DNA of 64,000 nt, from assembly GCA_034530875.2 (NCBI GenBank), contig JAVRCJ020000021.1, positions 1-64,000 on the forward strand, read 5' to 3'. Shown here one piece after another: positions 18,001 to 27,000 of the stretch. This DNA is from Nostoc sp. DedSLP01 (lineage in GTDB: Bacteria; Cyanobacteriota; Cyanobacteriia; Cyanobacteriales; Nostocaceae). Positions within the stretch are counted from its first letter, which is position 1; every line of letters starts with the position of its first letter. Made by a program: the position numbers.

Positions 18001-21000
18001 TATAGTTACTAGTACTGCTATTGAGTAACAAACAATCTATTACCCGACAATACCATAATTGTTTTTAGTAACTTCTAAAAACTTTCCCTAGATAGATTAG
18101 TAATTCATTCTGATGAGTGTTGACATTTAGGCTGATAAAGCCTTATAAGGTAAATCAACCTCAAGCGTATGTAGCTACAAATTATTTTTTTTAATTGTAT
18201 ACAACATATAAATCTGATGTAGTGGTGTATGGGTGTAATACCAATCCTCTAAAATTCTGCAACACATTGCAACCATAAAACCTAAACACCATCTGAATTT
18301 CTTAATTGCGAATTGCGAATTGGTATCCTGTGGTTTGAGTATAGTTTTAGCGATCGCCAAAAAAAAATCATCAACTACTGCATAACAAGTCACGATTGAC
18401 CTGATTATTCAACGAGGGTTAAACCTCAAGCATCATCCTGTAATTGGGAACTGAGCTATATCAATAAATGCTAACTCGGTCTTAGCGCCTAGATAAAAGT
18501 ATTCAAGTCTAGGTGTAATTTTCGTTCGAGTTATTTAGCATCTCGTACTTGGAAAATTTAAACTTATTATGTCACTAAATACTACTTTACTTAACAATTA
18601 TCAATCAGAAGAAGTTTGGTTACCTTTTTCAGAAAGCATATTAGAATGGGATATAGATTTTCATGAATTAATGCTTGGCGATCGCATCAGAATGGCTGCT
18701 TATAAAAATGCCATTCAAGAAGTAGTCAAGCCAGGAATGGTAGTTTTAGATCTAGGTACTGGAACAGGAATTTTAGGATTGTGGGCTTTACAAGCCGGTG
18801 CAAAACATTTGTATGCCCTTGATGTTAATAAAGATATCCTTGCTATTGCCAGCGAAAATTTTGCACAAAATGGTTTTTCGGGAAAATTTGATATTTTTCA
18901 CGGTATGTCATATAACATAAATCTCCCAACGCGGGTTGATTTGATTATTTCAGAAATCATGGGAAATATCGCAGATAACGAAGATTTTGTTCCAATTTTA
19001 ACAGATGCACATAAGCGTTTTCTCAAACCATCAGGAATAATGTTGCCCTCTAGAGTGTGCAGCCAATTAGTACCGGTCAATTCACTTAAAGTTCATCAGC
19101 AAGTTCAATCCAAAAAAGTTAAAAGAATAAATGCCAACTACAGCATAGAAAAACTTTTACAAAAACTAGCAAGTCAAAGTCCATTTGATACTTACTATGA
19201 TGTAATTCTTCCAGATACAAGTTATTTGAGTACGCCTCAAGTAGCTAAAGAATTTAAAATGGATGGAAACGATGAAGCTGTTTATGAAATTAGTTTGAAT
19301 TTTAATGTAGAAGTAGATGGTATTTTTACAGGATTTAAAGGAAGTTTTAGAGCTAGCCTTTCTGACTCAATTATTTTAGATATATCAGGTTCTGATATTG
19401 CATCTCATACCACATCAGATAGTTGGAAACACTGCTATTTACCAGTACAAACTCCAGTAGAAGTGCAGCATGGAGATGAAATATCCTTAATTTTTAGTCG
19501 TTCTTATCCTCAACAGAGAGATTCACTATTTCGTCAATGTTACAAGTGGAACGGAACTATCAAACGTGGTGGAAAAATTATTAATGCTTTTTACCAAAGT
19601 ATGGAAAGTTAAAAGTAAAAAATATAGAGATTAGATAAATACTATTGTTATCTATAACTTTTGTACAGCTTAATTAATCGAGGAACTTGTTGATGAATAT
19701 TGCTCAAACAGAATTAATTGATTCTTCATTGTTCTTAGGAATGCATAGCGTTGATGAAGAAACTAGAATTGTATGCAAAAATTACTTTGTCGAACGTCTT
19801 GAAACAACAATTAGCATGAGTTTAGAACATGTAGGAGGCTGCGACAATATTATTTGGTTGTATCCACGAGAATTACAAGATGCTTACTATCCCTTCATGG
19901 ATACGCTACATACAATTATGAATATAGATAGGCTTCCGTATCAAGAAAACGATATCAATAGAGCCTTGACTGATTCAGAATTACAAGCTTTGCCTATGTA
20001 TGACAAGTTATTAATTGGATTTGCAAAAAACCGCAAAAAAACTGTCTATACAGTGAATAAAAAGCTTCTTAATAACGATAAATTACCAGTTTGTAATCCC
20101 ACAACTTCTGAAGAAAAAAGTTTTCCTGATTCACTAGAAAAATTGTATCAAATATCTTTACTACTAAGAATACCAGACATTCAACTTACTAGTGATTACT
20201 ACAACAATTGCGACCAATATAAAACTCATATTTGATTTATACAAAGCTGGTACGTCTCAAACTTGCTGCTTTTCGGTTGCCTTACTACACAAATATGTTT
20301 GTTAATCAAATCGGATTACTCTAGTCAAAAATTATGAATATTATCCTATTTAAATATTAAGGAAATGCCACATGAAAAATGGTAAAGAATTATTTCTATA
20401 TAACCGTAGTATTTTAGATGCGGATGCTTATAAAACAATGCTAGAGATTGAAAATTCATGGATAAATGAAATTTTCAGTTCTATTCAAGACAGGATAAAA
20501 ATTATTAAATCAAGAGCAGAGTTTAAAAAAGCATTCAATAATTTACTTTTAGAAGAGCGTAATGCATCGCCAGATGATTACCATTACATATCAACTCAGA
20601 TAAGTCTCAAAGAGTTTCAGGTAATTGTCCAAGAATTTGCTATTGATGGCTTAACTGAAGCCCAATCATTTTTATCAATCATTGCTAGGCTTCCACTAAC
20701 AGCCCAAATGCCTATGCTCAGGGTATTAATTGATGAATTTGGTTGTGGTAATTATGACTATTCACATTCTCATCTTTACCATAAACTGCTATCTGAATTA
20801 GGAATGCCTACCAGCATTGAAAATTACTTAGATATTCTCAATCCTGAAAGCTATGCTTTTTTAAATATATTCTATTGGCTGACAATGAGAGCGCCTGATG
20901 TCGAATATTTTTTAGGAGCTTTAGCATACTTAGAAAGTACGATTCCTTTTACCTTTCAATGTTTTGCAGACGCTTGCCAAAGGCTGAATATTACAAATAG

Positions 21001-24000: not shown

Positions 24001-27000
24001 TTTGTCTGCGTTTTGGCATAGATGCTCAACGCTGGGGAGGTTATAATTATGATACTCATGCAACTTCTAGTCTGTTTAATTTAGAATATCTTTTTAGAAG
24101 TTCAGCTTTGTATCTTAAAAAAGATAAGCTTGCTCTCCGGAATCCAGATTATCAAAGCTTAGCGAAAGCTATAGAAATTCAGCGTGCAGAGGCTGTATCT
24201 ATTACACGAGAGGAGTTATCTCTCGAACATCCTACAGGAATTTTAGGTTGTTATCACTCGATTAAAGTACATCATTCAACTAAAGAGATTTTTCGTAAAT
24301 TCATCATGGAAGCGTCGCAAGATACGTTAGAAAGCTGATTTTATAAATTGGCTGCTTAAAACTAAACCAGTACATAGTATAATTGAGAAAATAAGAAGTA
24401 ATTAATCTTTTTTATTCCCTATTCTTTTGATTAACCAGTAAATTTCTAACTCATGCCATTTTGATTTGAGATTGAGAATGGTCTTATAAGCTTGAATTTT
24501 GTAAATTTATCTCTCGCAATTAATTTTCAAACTGCATTCAAATAATAGTGCTATATAAAAATATCATAAATATGTATAGTTCTTTTCATTGAATAAGTAC
24601 TGGGTAGGATAGCACAACTGTGCTATCCTACCCAGCATTTATGTTGATGTTTGGTTAATTATTTCTTTCTCAACGTTACCTATACGGTAACCGTTATAAG
24701 TATATTAAAAAATAAGGAAAAACAAAACAAAAGGATATTTTATGCAAAGAATCGTTTCCGCAAGGCAATTACAATCAGCTAAAAGTTTCAATTGGGTCAG
24801 TTTGATTGCTGACATTATGCTTGCGGGGATGGTTATCGGCCCTGTAACTGCTCCTTTTTTGGCTGCGTCTGGGGTGTTTTTGCTGGGGGGAATTGCCAAT
24901 ATCATTTACTTTATGGGTCATCATGTTTGTCCCCAACCGACTTTGGGTTTAGATTTAGCACCCCCGTATATTATGGCTGTATGTATGCGCTGCTACGGTA
25001 CTGTGACGGGTTTGCTGATTACTCGTCTTTTGTATGGGGTTACGGGTGGTAAAGGTTTTTATTGGTTGAGTCAATATGGCTGGAATGGTGCGGCGTTAGC
25101 TAGCGTGCTAATGATGGCTTATCCCTTGGAATTGGCAGCAGAGGTTTTCGGTTGGTGGAGTTTCAATAATTATGTGGTTACGCCTTTTGGATTGATTACC
25201 GGTTTGGCGTGGGGATTGTTTGCGATGCCGATTTTACACGGAGGGCAGACTGGTAAGGGACTTCCAATTTAAAAAATATTCTATCGGTTTGATGGCAAGG
25301 GAGCAGGGGAGATGGAAAGTTGTTTTGAAAGAGTGAAATTGGTGAAATTGGATAATTTATTTTTTGGAGTTGCCTAAAAAGCAGACTGTTATAGGACTCA
25401 TATTTGATTTGGTGAAAAAAAATCAGCACACCCAAACAAGGCTTTTTTCCTACTCCCTACTCCCCATTCCCTACTCCCTGTCTACGCAAATAATTTCATG
25501 AATCAAGTCAGATTCCTATATTATCTAAGTTTTAGTACAAATTTCACTTATTAACTAATTTCTGCTTCTGTCTTAGTAGGGAACTTGCACCTACGATCGC
25601 TAATCCTACAAAACTGACTACAGAAGTGTATTCAGGTATAGGTTTTACAACTTTCTGTACGCTGACATTTTTATCTAAAGCATCAGCTGTATTAAACACG
25701 TAATCAAATGCATTTTTGTCGTTGAGTACAGTTCCTCTTAAAAAAAGTGCGCTCCAACGGGCAATAGTTTCAGTTGCAATATCTTGCTCTAACGTTGGTC
25801 TGTTACGCTCGCGGATAAGATTATCGTTGTTAGTAATTCCATAATGATTAGCACCAGTAATGCTAATCAAGGCTTTGGCCGGGTCTTGAATTCTAGCGTA
25901 TGTTAGTTGAGCATTAGCGGGTAGTGCCACACCATCTCGATTACCCTCCACTAAGGCAATAGGGATGTCATTATTATCAATAACAGAAGCTCCTCCACTA
26001 CTTTGAGCGATCGAGAAACTAGTCCCATAAAATACGCCCCCTTTCAATTGTTGGGGACGATTAAAATTATCAGTACAAAGAGCAGGAAAACATTTACCTT
26101 GAATCGCTGCTATTCCTACAGCTCCTCCAAATGAGTGTCCTAGCAAGACTAGGGTACTGGGGTCGAGTGAATTAGTAATAGGTGATGAAGGTCGAGACTT
26201 TTCACTAAGTATGTAAGTTAGAACATCATTTACTTGCTGTTGTTCCGCAATTAATCCTGTAACTGGGCCTGTTGGGCTAATTGCTGTTCTTGTATGATTA
26301 GGCACTACGACGACAAACCCATAACGTGCCACAGTGCTGGCAAATGTAGAGTAATCAGATTTATCAACTAGCGCTCCTTGCAAGAATAAGGCAATTGGTA
26401 GCGAATTCTGCTGAGGATCTTTATCGGACAAGATTGGATAGTAAATGTCGGCAGGATCTTGACCGCCGCCACTTCTGGGAATCGTAACAGAGTATCTGAG
26501 TGTACTCTCAAAAAGTGGAGTAGGGTTGAATGTAGCACCATTAGCACTATGCTCTACTCCTAGAGCGATCGCCAATGCTCCAACTATAGCCACTGACGAT
26601 CGCTTTTTTGAGGTGAGAAAATTCATGGCTTTATCCCTGGTCTAGTTTTGGCTGAAAAAATTGGAACAAAAATTTGTTGATTTCAATCTCAAATCGATAT
26701 TCAAAAAATATAAGAATTCTATCCCTTCAAGACTACTATCTACATAAATTTGTAGGGTAGCACAGCTAACCGTGCTACCCTACAAAGTTGGATATTTACT
26801 ACTCAGGACTGTTTGGGCGATTTTATTCCACCACTGTTGCGGAAGCTCCTTCTGCTGCTGGGGGTATACTTGGTAACTCAAGACAGTATCCTGCACCATA
26901 CACTGTTTTGATGTAACGGGGGTGGCGGGGATCTGGTTCTAGCTTGGTTCGCAAGTGACGAATATGGACTCGAATCGTTTCAATGTCGTCATCAGGATCG

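What a model noticed while it worked through the whole genome (the two positions that open the first line are those of the whole stretch)
18569..24338. Azomycin-type RohQ-RohS cassette in a cyanobacterium, with RohS fused to a Rieske domain and an arginine-methyltransfera [...]
Five co-oriented genes encode a PRMT-like methyltransferase, a homologue of the 2-aminoimidazole-forming cyclodehydratase RohQ, a homologue of the nitro-forming diiron N-oxygenase RohS with an extra C-terminal Rieske [2Fe-2S] domain, a cysteine-desulfurase-like PLP enzyme and a DUF6014 protein. I read this as a variant nitroimidazole pathway (azomycin-like, possibly N-methylated). In it the fused Rieske domain would feed electrons to the diiron site, and the PLP enzyme and DUF6014 protein would replace RohP and RohR. 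A nitroimidazole antibiotic from a cyanobacterium and a self-sufficient RohS-Rieske N-oxygenase (a handy amine-to-nitro biocatalyst) would both be new.
Evidence so far: g04307 (C21:20372-21472, 366 aa): phmmer to PDB 9pfx PbrRohS gives E 6.3e-62 over residues 5-269, and to SznF 1e-12. Residues 299-361 match Rieske ferredoxins (2qpz, E 6.9e-5). Pfam gives Haem_oxygenas_2 at 86-231 and Rieske at 306-359. g04306 (DUF6190, 180 aa): PDB 9c5w/9oq8 RohQ, E 1.4e-22 over residues 5-160. g04305: the best SwissProt hits are protein arginine N-methyltransferases, 34% identity. g04308: NCBIfam TIGR01976 cysteine desulfurase-like, 454 bits. g04309 (DUF6014): no PDB sequence match. Distribution from the tables: DUF6190 is next to Haem_oxygenas_2 in 246 of 266 genomes that have both, but DUF6190 is found in only 8 of 3329 Cyanobacteriota (4 of 126 Nostoc). 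Missing partner: [...]
(Added by a program. Inside this text positions count along the whole contig: contig position 1 is position 1 of the stretch shown here. "Call 12" and the like, gene names such as g00115 and contig names such as C1 are that model's own, and its searches are not shown. The text may have been shortened before it was handed on; [...] marks where a part breaks off. The agent that wrote the report below was given it as the finding of a first reader that could run no searches.)

Follow-up and report, generated by a model that had tools for sequence, protein, structure and literature searches.

The report
Variant nitroimidazole gene island in Nostoc
A small foreign-looking island in a Nostoc-type cyanobacterium carries five enzymes that together look able to turn arginine into a methylated nitroimidazole-type antibiotic by a route different from the known one, though no product has been shown.

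Summary
Five co-oriented intact genes at 18569-24338 form a 6.6-kb low-GC island (18119-24696) that a close relative lacks at the same site.

- **Known steps:** the RohQ and RohS homologues are convincing. All seven RohS metal ligands are kept.
- **Rieske domain:** all four cluster ligands are kept. It is fused in one clade, split in one member, and fused independently in a second clade. It is probably the counterpart of the ferredoxin-like partner encoded in known azomycin clusters, so the enzyme is not "self-sufficient".
- **New here, DUF6014:** the protein models confidently (pLDDT 95) as a PolE-like Fe/pterin amino-acid oxidase (Z 26). It carries PolE's HDxxH-x23-E motif.
- **New here, the "cysteine desulfurase-like" enzyme:** it lacks the catalytic Cys. 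It belongs to the Cys-less family of Fgm3, which cleaves 4-hydroxyarginine to guanidinoacetaldehyde, the RohQ substrate.

These two enzymes plausibly replace RohP and RohR. A PRMT-like methyltransferase with an intact double-E loop is present in every complete copy. All five genes are under purifying selection.

No product, RNA or assay exists. This scan noted other azomycin-type operons on other DNA, but not this cassette. I rate it a new variant of a known kind.

The parts
18119..24696 (+). Island: 6578 bp present here, replaced by 176 nt in the closest relative searched (G666)
   Evidence: homology with G666 ends at window 18118 and resumes at 24697. GC is 34.1% against 40.9% for the genome, within the lowest 0.5% of 2685 windows of 6.6 kb.
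18569..19612 (+). PRMT-like SAM methyltransferase (347 aa); proposed guanidine or ring-N methylase
   Evidence: PrmA, PRMT5_C and Methyltransf domains; the best PDB hits are all PRMTs, top 7.9e-24; double-E loop E129/E138 kept; the THW loop reads DSW.
19687..20235 (+). RohQ-like cyclodehydratase (DUF6190, 182 aa)
   Evidence: DUF6190 1.5e-59. PDB RohQ 9c5w 1.4e-22 over residues 6-162.
20372..21181 (+). RohS-like haem-oxygenase-like diiron N-oxygenase domain (residues 1 to about 270)
   Evidence: PbrRohS 6.3e-62. E96, E122, H132, E188, H216, D220 and H223 match PbrRohS E98, E124, H134, E190, H218, D222 and H225. They are invariant in 17 of 17 fused homologues.
21239..21472 (+). C-terminal Rieske [2Fe-2S] ferredoxin-type domain (residues about 290-366, plus stop)
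   Evidence: Rieske 5e-8; 2qpz 6.9e-5. C315-x-H317 ... C336-x-x-H339, invariant in 17 of 17.
21730..23004 (+). Cys-less SufS-fold PLP enzyme (TIGR01976, 424 aa); proposed 4-hydroxyarginine C-beta/C-gamma lyase
   Evidence: TIGR01976 453.6 bits. PDB FGM3 8.6e-48. SufS GHHC reads GNHY here.
23154..24338 (+). DUF6014 protein (394 aa); proposed PolE-like Fe(II)/pterin-dependent arginine C4 oxidase
   Evidence: AF2 pLDDT 95.4. Foldseek SmPolE 6e-11. Z 26.1 over 341 of 369 residues; invariant H226, H230 and E254, forming HDAGH-x23-E.
24600..24635 (+). 16-bp-stem hairpin downstream of the last gene, inside the island; possible terminator
   Evidence: terminator-like scan. Only a pattern match; the number of such sites in the region equals the shuffle expectation.

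Best explanation
The island encodes a self-contained route from L-arginine to a 2-aminoimidazole-derived nitro compound, most likely an N-methyl-2-nitroimidazole.

Proposed order of steps:
1. The DUF6014 protein, a PolE-like Fe(II) oxidase probably using a reduced pterin, oxidises arginine at C4 to 4-hydroxyarginine. This step is inferred.
2. [quoted passage not shown] This step is inferred.
3. The RohQ homologue cyclodehydrates guanidinoacetaldehyde to 2-aminoimidazole. This rests on homology to a characterised enzyme.
4. The RohS homologue oxidises the amine to a nitro group at its diiron site. The fused Rieske [2Fe-2S] domain re-reduces that site, and itself takes electrons from a host reductase or ferredoxin. 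The oxidation rests on homology; the electron path is inferred from the fusion and the split form.
5. The PRMT-like methyltransferase methylates a guanidine or ring nitrogen. It could act on arginine at the start, as SznE does, or on the imidazole at the end. The position and timing are unknown.

Steps 1 and 2 replace RohP and RohR of the known pathway.
For: - **RohS and RohQ homology:** RohS-like domain matches PbrRohS at 6.3e-62 with all seven ligands kept. The nearest unfused relatives are 45-55% identical actinobacterial proteins. Characterised RohS enzymes that share the same activity are only 39% identical to each other. RohQ-like protein matches at 1.4e-22.
- **DUF6014 as an oxidase:** the model has pLDDT 95.4. 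Its best structural matches are Fe/pterin PolE: Foldseek 6e-11 and Z 26.1, rmsd 3.7 A, over 341 of 369 residues. A family profile finds PolE first in the PDB (E 0.054) with HDaGH aligned to HEfHH and EEwRaD to EElRvD. H226, H230 and E254 are invariant in 49 of 49 sequences. They fit the PolE-family motif HE/DxxHx(21-23)E (PMC12614342, passages).
- **DUF6014 context elsewhere:** other DUF6014 genes sit in amino-acid settings. Examples are an NRPS cluster, a carrier protein plus an ADI-like enzyme, AstA, and ACT-domain neighbours.
- **PLP enzyme as a lyase:** it scores 453.6 bits on TIGR01976, lacks the SufS catalytic Cys as FGM3 does, and matches FGM3 at 8.6e-48. Fgm3 cleaves 4-hydroxy-L-Arg to guanidinoacetaldehyde plus L-Ala (bioRxiv 10.1101/2023.03.21.533663; PMC10967133). 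That aldehyde is the RohQ substrate.
- **Conservation of the set:** the five genes travel together in every complete copy seen: L001-L003, L016, and L018 and L020. dN/dS is 0.07-0.25 in the 18 of 20 gene pairs that could be computed.
- **Rieske link:** the Rieske part is fused in 15 of 16 members of the cyanobacterial clade and is a separate ORF 23 nt downstream in the sixteenth. It is fused independently in a second clade.
- **Methyltransferase:** the double-E loop is kept. An arginine-guanidino methyltransferase working with a haem-oxygenase-like diiron oxidase (HDO) has a precedent in SznE/SznF (PMC11705231).
Against: - No product, transcript or assay exists. The only sequencing runs that hold the island are DNA.
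- The cassette's PLP enzyme scores slightly better against true SufS structures (180.8 bits) than against FGM3 (166.4 bits). A second TIGR01976 gene of this genome is much closer to FGM3 (310.6 bits).
- The Tyr in FGM3's YKVYGPH segment looks like the Tyr225 that the GntC authors proposed as general base, from AlphaFold models. Equating the two is my own reading, one residue off in numbering. At that position the cassette enzyme has Phe (YKFFGPH).
- PolE is a desaturase of isoleucine, not a hydroxylase of arginine. Identity to PolE is at most 16%.
- One genome (G154) has a RohS-Rieske gene beside a GMC oxidoreductase and has no DUF6190 or DUF6014 gene at all. The fused oxygenase is therefore not tied to this pathway.
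- The island carries no exporter or resistance gene.
- From my own knowledge, not from a call: nitroimidazoles are reduced by photosystem-I ferredoxin and are toxic to cyanobacteria. Accumulating one in the light would be a problem for the producer.
- I could not search the rest of the genome for RohP or RohR, because I had no reference sequences for them.
Confidence: 0.5

Rival explanations
1. The cassette does make 2-aminoimidazole and a nitroimidazole, but guanidinoacetaldehyde arises differently. One possibility is RohP/RohR-type enzymes encoded elsewhere in the genome. Another is that DUF6014 acts as a desaturase and the PLP enzyme performs other chemistry on the unsaturated amino acid. 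The two genes could also tailor the product rather than make the precursor.
For: PolE itself is a desaturase. The PLP enzyme is not the closest FGM3 relative in this genome, and it has Phe where I read FGM3's proposed base Tyr. I could not search for RohP/RohR genome-wide.
Against: The PLP and DUF6014 genes accompany RohQ and RohS in every complete copy, at three or more different genomic sites. The closest relative lacks all five genes together. Hydroxylase plus lyase closes the pathway with no missing step.
Confidence: 0.17
2. The pathway follows SznE/SznF-like logic. The methyltransferase makes N-methylarginine, and the diiron enzyme N-oxygenates a methylated guanidine or aminoimidazole. 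The product would be an N-hydroxy, N-nitroso or other N-O compound rather than a C-nitro imidazole.
For: The methyltransferase is PRMT-like with its double-E loop kept. The diiron domain also matches SznF at about 1e-12. SznE/SznF is a precedent. If the exocyclic nitrogen were methylated, a nitro group could not form.
Against: The match to RohS is about 160 bits stronger than the match to SznF. There is no cupin domain. A RohQ homologue is always present, and it has no role in SznF-type chemistry.
Confidence: 0.13
3. The PLP enzyme works in the bond-forming direction, like UstD. It would join an alanine-derived enamine to an aldehyde, so the product would be an unusual amino acid carrying an imidazole or guanidine side chain rather than a free nitroimidazole.
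For: UstD is also a Cys-less SufS-like relative: 122 bits to the cassette enzyme and 206 bits to its paralogue. Other DUF6014 genes lie in NRPS clusters.
Against: The island has no NRPS, ligase or carrier protein. RohQ would then have no source of substrate.
Confidence: 0.08
4. The island is a silent or decaying acquisition with no current product.
For: It has foreign composition and a patchy distribution. No RNA data exist. In one lineage the RohS and Rieske parts are split into different frames.
Against: All five frames are intact here and in the other complete copies. Every metal ligand is kept. dN/dS is 0.07-0.25.
Confidence: 0.05

Closest known systems
rohPQRST azomycin cluster of Streptomyces, Kitasatospora and Pseudomonas (Hedges and Ryan 2019, recalled; JBC 2026 PMC13133933, sections read)
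   Same: Adjacent RohQ and RohS homologues. All seven RohS metal ligands are kept. An iron-sulfur partner accompanies the oxygenase. Arginine is the likely precursor and 2-aminoimidazole the likely intermediate.
   Different: No RohP (PLP arginine oxidase) and no RohR (retro-aldolase) in the island. The iron-sulfur partner is fused to RohS. A PRMT-like methyltransferase is added. The host is a cyanobacterium, and the cassette is a 6.6-kb low-GC island.
Fgm1/Fgm3 route to guanidinoacetaldehyde in fusaoctaxin B biosynthesis of Fusarium graminearum (Tang 2021, seen only as cited in PMC10967133 and bioRxiv 10.1101/2023.03.21.533663)
   Same: A Cys-less SufS-fold PLP enzyme (FGM3 matches at 8.6e-48). 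The logic is to hydroxylate arginine at C4 and then cleave C-beta/C-gamma, giving guanidinoacetaldehyde and alanine.
   Different: In the fungus the hydroxylase is a P450; here it would be a DUF6014 protein. The aldehyde would go to an imidazole, not to guanidinoacetate. Phe replaces the Tyr in FGM3's YKVYGPH segment, which I take to be the proposed base Tyr225. The cassette enzyme is a divergent branch of the family.
PolE (DUF6421), Fe/pterin-dependent L-isoleucine desaturase of polyoxin biosynthesis (PMC12614342, passages; PDB 9j3g, 9j2e)
   Same: Full-length DPP III-like fold (Z 26.1) and the HE/DxxH-x(21-23)-E metal motif. Both are free-amino-acid tailoring enzymes working alongside an HDO enzyme.
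   Different: A different Pfam family (DUF6014, not DUF6421). Identity is at most 16%. The substrate and the reaction outcome (hydroxylation or desaturation) are unknown. Pterin dependence is untested.
SznE/SznF of streptozotocin biosynthesis
   Same: A guanidine methyltransferase is paired with a seven-ligand HDO N-oxygenase acting on an arginine-derived guanidine.
   Different: There is no cupin domain. The similarity is much weaker than to RohS. RohQ is present.
MboA/MboB (mangotoxin) and other HDOs with dedicated redox partners (PMC13725569, passages)
   Same: The HDO depends on a private [2Fe-2S] electron carrier.
   Different: Here the carrier is a Rieske-type domain fused to the HDO. 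It has no flavin or NAD(P)H domain.

Membership tests
RohS (HDO N-oxygenase, PF14518) | Haem-oxygenase-like fold with sequence similarity to characterised RohS | tested here: met
   PF14518 1.9e-31. PbrRohS 6.3e-62 over residues 5-269.
RohS (HDO N-oxygenase, PF14518) | Seven metal ligands: E98, E124, H134, E190, H218, D222, H225 in PbrRohS | tested here: met
   E96, E122, H132, E188, H216, D220 and H223 align to them. They are invariant in 17 of 17 fused homologues.
RohS (HDO N-oxygenase, PF14518) | Oxidises 2-aminoimidazole to 2-nitroimidazole | not testable with these tools
   Needs an enzyme assay.
RohQ (DUF6190 cyclodehydratase) | DUF6190 domain, similarity to solved RohQ, and adjacency to RohS | tested here: met
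   The gene lies 136 nt upstream of the RohS gene. Catalytic residues were not checked because the RohQ paper is not held.
rohPQRST azomycin cluster | RohP and RohR genes in the cluster | tested here: not met
   The island holds only the five genes listed. None is a fold-type-I MppP-like enzyme or an aldolase. I did not search the rest of the genome.
rohPQRST azomycin cluster | Ferredoxin-like partner (RohT) | tested here: inconclusive
   A Rieske domain is fused to RohS. The known cluster encodes a 'ferredoxin-like' protein. I could not obtain a RohT sequence to test homology.
PolE-like Fe/pterin oxidases | DPP III-like fold over the whole length | tested here: met
   Z 26.1, rmsd 3.7 A, over 341 of 369 residues to 9j3g. 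Foldseek 6e-11.
PolE-like Fe/pterin oxidases | HE/DxxHx(21-23)E motif | tested here: met
   H226-D-A-G-H230, then 23 residues, then E254. Invariant in 49 of 49 sequences and in register with PolE.
PolE-like Fe/pterin oxidases | Pfam DUF6421 membership; Fe and tetrahydropterin dependence | tested here: not met
   No member of the alignment hits DUF6421 in Pfam (0 of 49). It is a separate family. Cofactor use cannot be tested here.
Fgm3-type PLP lyase (Cys-less SufS fold, TIGR01976) | Class-V fold with the catalytic Cys of SufS replaced | tested here: met
   TIGR01976 453.6 bits. The sequence reads GNHY where SufS has GHHC and FGM3 has GHFF.
Fgm3-type PLP lyase (Cys-less SufS fold, TIGR01976) | Proposed general-base Tyr (Y225 of Fgm3, a proposal from modelling; I equate it with the Tyr in YKVYGPH, one residue off in chain numbering) | tested here: not met
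   Phe stands at the aligned position (YKFFGPH against YKVYGPH) in the window and in three other copies of the cassette. The paralogue on contig C33 keeps Tyr.
Protein arginine methyltransferase fold | SAM-binding motif, double-E loop, THW loop, C-terminal barrel | tested here: met
   LDLGTGTG motif, E129/E138 and a PRMT5_C match. The THW loop reads DSW, so it is only partly kept.
Rieske [2Fe-2S] ferredoxin | CxH ... CxxH ligands | tested here: met
   C315, H317, C336 and H339, invariant in 17 of 17.

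The most novel reading that the evidence does not exclude
Plant-associated Nostoc-type cyanobacteria make an N-substituted 2-nitroimidazole from arginine by a route built from three enzyme families that were each recognised only recently. 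On this reading:
- DUF6014 is the first Fe/pterin-type arginine C4-hydroxylase.
- TIGR01976 proteins are C-C lyases, not desulfurases.
- The natural RohS-Rieske fusion shows how haem-oxygenase-like diiron enzymes are reduced in cells.
Probability: 0.3. Interest if true: 0.8.

Novelty: new variant of a known kind. Interest (0 to 1): 0.66.

Why it matters
- **Function leads for two unknown families.** The island gives testable functions for DUF6014 and for TIGR01976 "cysteine desulfurase-like" proteins. Each lead is a specific substrate that can be bought or made.
- **Convergent chemistry.** It would show that bacteria reached guanidinoacetaldehyde and 2-aminoimidazole by a second route, parallel to the fungal Fgm1/Fgm3 logic.
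- **An open question about diiron oxygenases.** Haem-oxygenase-like diiron oxygenases are assayed with artificial reductants, and their physiological electron donors are mostly uncharacterised. A natural fusion, a natural split form and a second independent fusion offer a direct way to study this.
- **A new producer and a new scaffold.** A nitroimidazole from a cyanobacterium would be new, and it would raise a self-resistance puzzle. A natural N-substituted 2-nitroimidazole would resemble the drug scaffold of benznidazole.
- **Literature status.** My searches of the held library found no paper describing this cassette. Many journals are not in that library.

Tried and rejected
- **GntB idea dropped.** I first asked whether DUF6014 is a GntB-like transmembrane arginine hydroxylase. 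The sequence shows no obvious membrane spans by eye, and the confident model is a soluble DPP III/PolE-like fold.
- **Complex prediction.** Complex prediction on the HDO part (residues 1-270) and the Rieske part (290-366), using alignment A3, gave no verdict. The score was 0.02 against a mark of 0.32.
- **Sequencing runs.** No RNA holder was listed. The three DNA runs, all of one study labelled root metagenome, may be the source of this DNA. I therefore did not use read laying.
- **Reference sequences for RohP, RohR and RohT.**
  - A Streptomyces RohS against the plasmid collection gave no match.
  - The split 85-aa Rieske protein found only itself.
  - The Rieske region searched against shorter proteins gave nothing.
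  - The RohQ paper is not held.
  - As a result I did not search the rest of the genome for RohP/RohR, and I did not test whether the Rieske domain is homologous to RohT.
- **Profile too loose.** The metagenome scan with the 49-row alignment failed because no stretch was conserved enough. I repeated it with an 8-row alignment.
- **RNA families.** Rfam gave only a sub-threshold microRNA hit on the hairpin at 24602-24634.
- **Promoters.** The promoter-like scan found fewer sites than shuffles did, 16 against a mean of 29. No promoter is claimed.
- **Family names in papers.** No paper in the held library names DUF6014, DUF6190, PF19477 or PF19689.

Full report
**The observation**

The window has five co-oriented ORFs at 18569-19612, 19687-20235, 20372-21472, 21730-23004 and 23154-24338. 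Upstream lies a divergent tamB gene (12622-18000, minus strand). Downstream lies a DUF2085 membrane-protein gene (24742-25272).
- RohS-like protein against PDB 9pfx PbrRohS, E 6.3e-62 over residues 5-269; against SznF, about 1e-12; residues 299-361 against Rieske ferredoxin 2qpz, 6.9e-5.
- DUF6190 protein against RohQ 9c5w, 1.4e-22.
- The methyltransferase's best PDB hits are all protein arginine methyltransferases.
- The PLP enzyme scores 453.6 bits on TIGR01976.
- The DUF6014 protein has no PDB sequence match better than E 0.67.

**The genes form a discrete island**

- In the closest relative searched (G666), the tamB end and the DUF2085 gene are separated by 176 nt. In the window the same two homology blocks end at 18118 and resume at 24697. 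G666 has neither a DUF6190 nor a DUF6014 gene anywhere.
- The 6578-bp interval has 34.1% GC against 40.9% for the genome. That is within the lowest 0.5% of 2685 windows of the same size.
- The same five genes lie between tamB and DUF2085 in three named relatives: Nostoc sp. CCY 9925, a Desmonostoc geniculatum MAG and Nostoc calcicola FACHB-3891.
- They occur at a different site, flanked by GST and MarR genes, in a more distant member of the family (G055, locus L016).
- They also occur on a metagenome contig at 61-74% protein identity (L020).
- The cassette is rare. The RohS-Rieske protein matched in 5 of 300 other genomes of the family. DUF6190 was found in 0 of 400 other Cyanobacteriota sampled.
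- All five genes are under purifying selection. dN/dS is 0.07-0.25 in 18 of 20 gene pairs against four other copies. Two pairs could not be computed.

**The RohS-like protein**

- Against the numbering of the JBC 2026 structure paper (PMC13133933, Results and Discussion read), the printed alignment has a chain offset of 21.
- With that offset, query E96, E122, H132, E188, H216, D220 and H223 sit on PbrRohS E98, E124, H134, E190, H218, D222 and H225.
- This set includes the "seventh" Glu shared only with SznF. It also includes the His whose loss inactivates the P. syringae enzyme.
- All seven residues are invariant in 17 of 17 fused homologues.
- The nearest unfused relatives are actinobacterial proteins at 45-55% identity. 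The paper reports that active RohS enzymes are as little as 39% identical to one another.

**The Rieske domain**

- C315-x-H317 and C336-x-x-H339 are invariant in the same 17 sequences.
- Of the best 120 homologues listed, 18 carry both PF14518 and PF00355.
- I built a tree of 118 of those 120 rows. Two rows shorter than 240 aa were dropped, and fused rows were cut to 285 residues.
  - Fifteen fused proteins form one clade (SH-aLRT 98). The single unfused cyanobacterial protein is nested inside it.
  - Three fused proteins at 37-38% identity, one of them named Blastocatellia, form a separate clade among unfused ones.
- The nested unfused protein belongs to locus L016. There a 274-aa RohS ORF is followed 23 nt later, in another frame, by an 85-aa Rieske ORF. 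This could be a real two-gene form or a frameshift.
- A related 80-aa Rieske protein in another genome sits beside a Rieske ring-hydroxylating oxygenase, which is the usual place of an electron-shuttling ferredoxin.
- Fusion, split and a second independent fusion together argue that the Rieske centre works with the diiron domain.
- The mangotoxin paper (PMC13725569, passages) states three things:
  - The azomycin and streptozotocin clusters encode uncharacterised ferredoxin-like proteins thought to serve RohS and SznF.
  - About 40% of clusters containing haem-oxygenase-like diiron oxidases (HDOs) encode such a partner.
  - RohS has so far been driven with phenazine methosulfate and NADH.
- The fused domain is therefore best read as the counterpart of that partner, RohT. 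I recall that RohT is Rieske-type, but no call confirmed it.
- The protein has no flavin or NAD(P)H domain, so it is not self-sufficient.
- A 2026 review of HDOs contains no occurrence of "fused", "fusion" or "ferredoxin".

**The DUF6014 protein**

- The family is small: 103 representative clusters at E up to 0.001 among 1.84 billion.
- I aligned the query with 48 near-full-length hits. F158, H226, H230, G233 and E254 are invariant. E255, R257 and D259 are nearly so.
- AlphaFold2 on that alignment gave pLDDT 95.4 and pTM 0.92.
- Foldseek against the PDB put Fe2+/pterin-dependent PolE first (9j3g, E 6e-11, TM 0.66/0.70), followed by dipeptidyl peptidases III. VIA-align gave Z 26.1, rmsd 3.7 A, over 341 of 369 residues to 9j3g.
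- The family profile finds PolE as its best PDB sequence hit (E 0.054, weak). The motifs are in register: HDaGH on HEfHH, and EEwRaD on EElRvD.
- The Nature Chemistry paper (PMC12614342, passages) shows that PolE (DUF6421) is an Fe- and tetrahydropterin-dependent oxidase that desaturates free L-isoleucine. Its family shares HE/DxxHx(21-23)E. The window protein has H226-DAG-H230, then 23 residues, then E254.
- No member of my alignment hits DUF6421 in Pfam (0 of 49). DUF6014 is therefore a separate, distantly related family.
- Its neighbours elsewhere fit an amino-acid tailoring role. I annotated 21 of the 44 metagenome loci (116 ORFs):
  - 9 loci have a stand-alone B3_4-domain protein next to the DUF6014 gene.
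  - 5 loci have a small ACT-domain protein next to it.
  - One locus has a carrier protein and an arginine-deiminase-fold enzyme.
  - One locus has an AstA-like arginine succinyltransferase.
- Two genomes of the same genus carry a second DUF6014 gene inside an NRPS cluster with a methyltransferase, an SDR and two WelO5-like oxygenases.

**The PLP enzyme**

- It has the SufS fold but not the SufS chemistry. SufS structures and this genome's own SufS have GHHC, with the persulfide-forming Cys. The cassette enzyme has GNHY, and FGM3 has GHFF.
- FGM3 is its third-best PDB hit (8.6e-48).
[quoted passage not shown] Sources: GntC preprint 10.1101/2023.03.21.533663, passages; Fusarium NRPS review PMC10967133, passages. 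I did not see the primary paper, Tang 2021.
- Guanidinoacetaldehyde is the compound that RohR delivers to RohQ in the known pathway. PMC10724926 gives the order of the enzymes. The substrate name is recalled from the primary paper.
- Three cautions apply:
  - A second TIGR01976 gene of this genome (contig C33) is far closer to FGM3 (310.6 bits). The cassette enzyme is thus a divergent branch of the family.
  - The Tyr in FGM3's YKVYGPH segment looks like the Tyr225 proposed, from models, as Fgm3's general base. Equating the two is my own reading, one residue off in chain numbering. The cassette enzyme has Phe at that position.
  - UstD, which forms C-C bonds, is in the same neighbourhood.

**The methyltransferase**

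- It keeps the SAM motif and both glutamates of the PRMT double-E loop (E129, E138). It also keeps the C-terminal barrel. The THW loop reads DSW.
- It is present in every complete copy of the cassette.
- An arginine-guanidino methyltransferase feeding an HDO is known from streptozotocin biosynthesis (SznE/SznF; PMC11705231, passage).
- Sequence cannot tell whether this enzyme methylates arginine first or the ring last. If the final step is nitro formation, the exocyclic amine must stay primary. That favours a ring N-methyl product. This is inference.

**Synthesis**

- Hydroxylase, lyase, cyclodehydratase, N-oxygenase with its electron carrier, and methyltransferase make a closed route from arginine with no missing step.
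- Each of the two replacement enzymes has a characterised relative that performs the needed kind of chemistry.
- What is shown: homology, conserved ligands, fold, synteny, selection and the island structure.
- What is inferred: the substrates of DUF6014 and of the PLP enzyme, the direction of electron flow, and the product.

**Against the model**

- No transcript or product data exist.
- G154 carries RohS-Rieske beside a GMC oxidoreductase, with no RohQ or DUF6014 gene in that genome.
- The island has no exporter or resistance gene.
- From my own knowledge: nitroimidazoles are reduced by photosynthetic ferredoxin and are toxic to cyanobacteria.
- Orthologous GSTs (59% identical) flank the cassette in L016 and L020 but not here. 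They might bear on self-protection. This is speculation.

**Earlier notes of this scan**

One search returned notes on a rohPQR operon with a methyltransferase in a myxobacterium and on a 2-aminoimidazole island in another cyanobacterium. I did not test either. Neither is this cassette.

**Verdict**

This is a new variant of a known kind of pathway. I put 0.5 on the full mechanism as stated.

Noticed in passing
G000 contig C21, about 69057-70160 (locus L005:964-2067), 5 kb beyond the window's end: A second haem-oxygenase-like diiron gene (367 aa, PF14518 1.7e-27) lies on the same contig. It is followed by a 231-aa ORF with no Pfam match.
   Followed up: partly
window 25254-25379 and 25390-25523: Two short dispersed repeats of about 125-135 bp lie just after the DUF2085 gene. 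At least 10 further copies at 90-98% identity occur in this genome, and many weaker ones in relatives. They look like miniature mobile elements.
   Followed up: no
window 18235-18326: A stretch of about 90 bp inside the island's left edge, upstream of the methyltransferase gene, matches unrelated sites in three other genomes of the genus at 79-85% identity. It may be another small repeat near the junction.
   Followed up: no
L020:541-1236 and L016:14596-15267: Orthologous glutathione S-transferases (59% identical) sit next to the cassette in two divergent copies, on opposite sides. This genome has no orthologue; its best match is 32% identical.
   Followed up: partly
L022, L025, L026, L029, L030, L034, L047, L055, L059; and L037, L040, L043, L048, L049: Distant DUF6014 genes are repeatedly paired with one of two partners. 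One is a stand-alone B3_4-domain protein of about 235 aa (9 of 21 loci annotated). The other is a small ACT_7/A9CJY8-like protein (5 of 21). This is an unexplained conserved pairing.
   Followed up: no
L079 (G282:C1:408000-420000): Two genomes of the genus carry a second DUF6014 gene (318 bits) inside an NRPS cluster. The cluster holds an NRPS (C-A-T-TE), a methyltransferase, an SDR, DUF6014 and two WelO5-like 2OG oxygenases.
   Followed up: partly
L015 (G154:C1:3095000-3114999): A RohS-Rieske fusion (64% identical) stands directly after a GMC oxidoreductase gene. That genome has no RohQ or DUF6014 gene.
   Followed up: partly
G000:C33:103-1335 (L072): A second TIGR01976 gene of this genome is a much closer relative of fungal FGM3 (E 1.3e-91) and of UstD than the cassette enzyme is. 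It also lacks the SufS Cys. Its upstream context is cut off by the contig end.
   Followed up: partly
window 29968-31467: A DUF433/DUF5615 gene pair, of a toxin-antitoxin-like arrangement, overlaps the start of a 4'-phosphopantetheinyl transferase gene.
   Followed up: no
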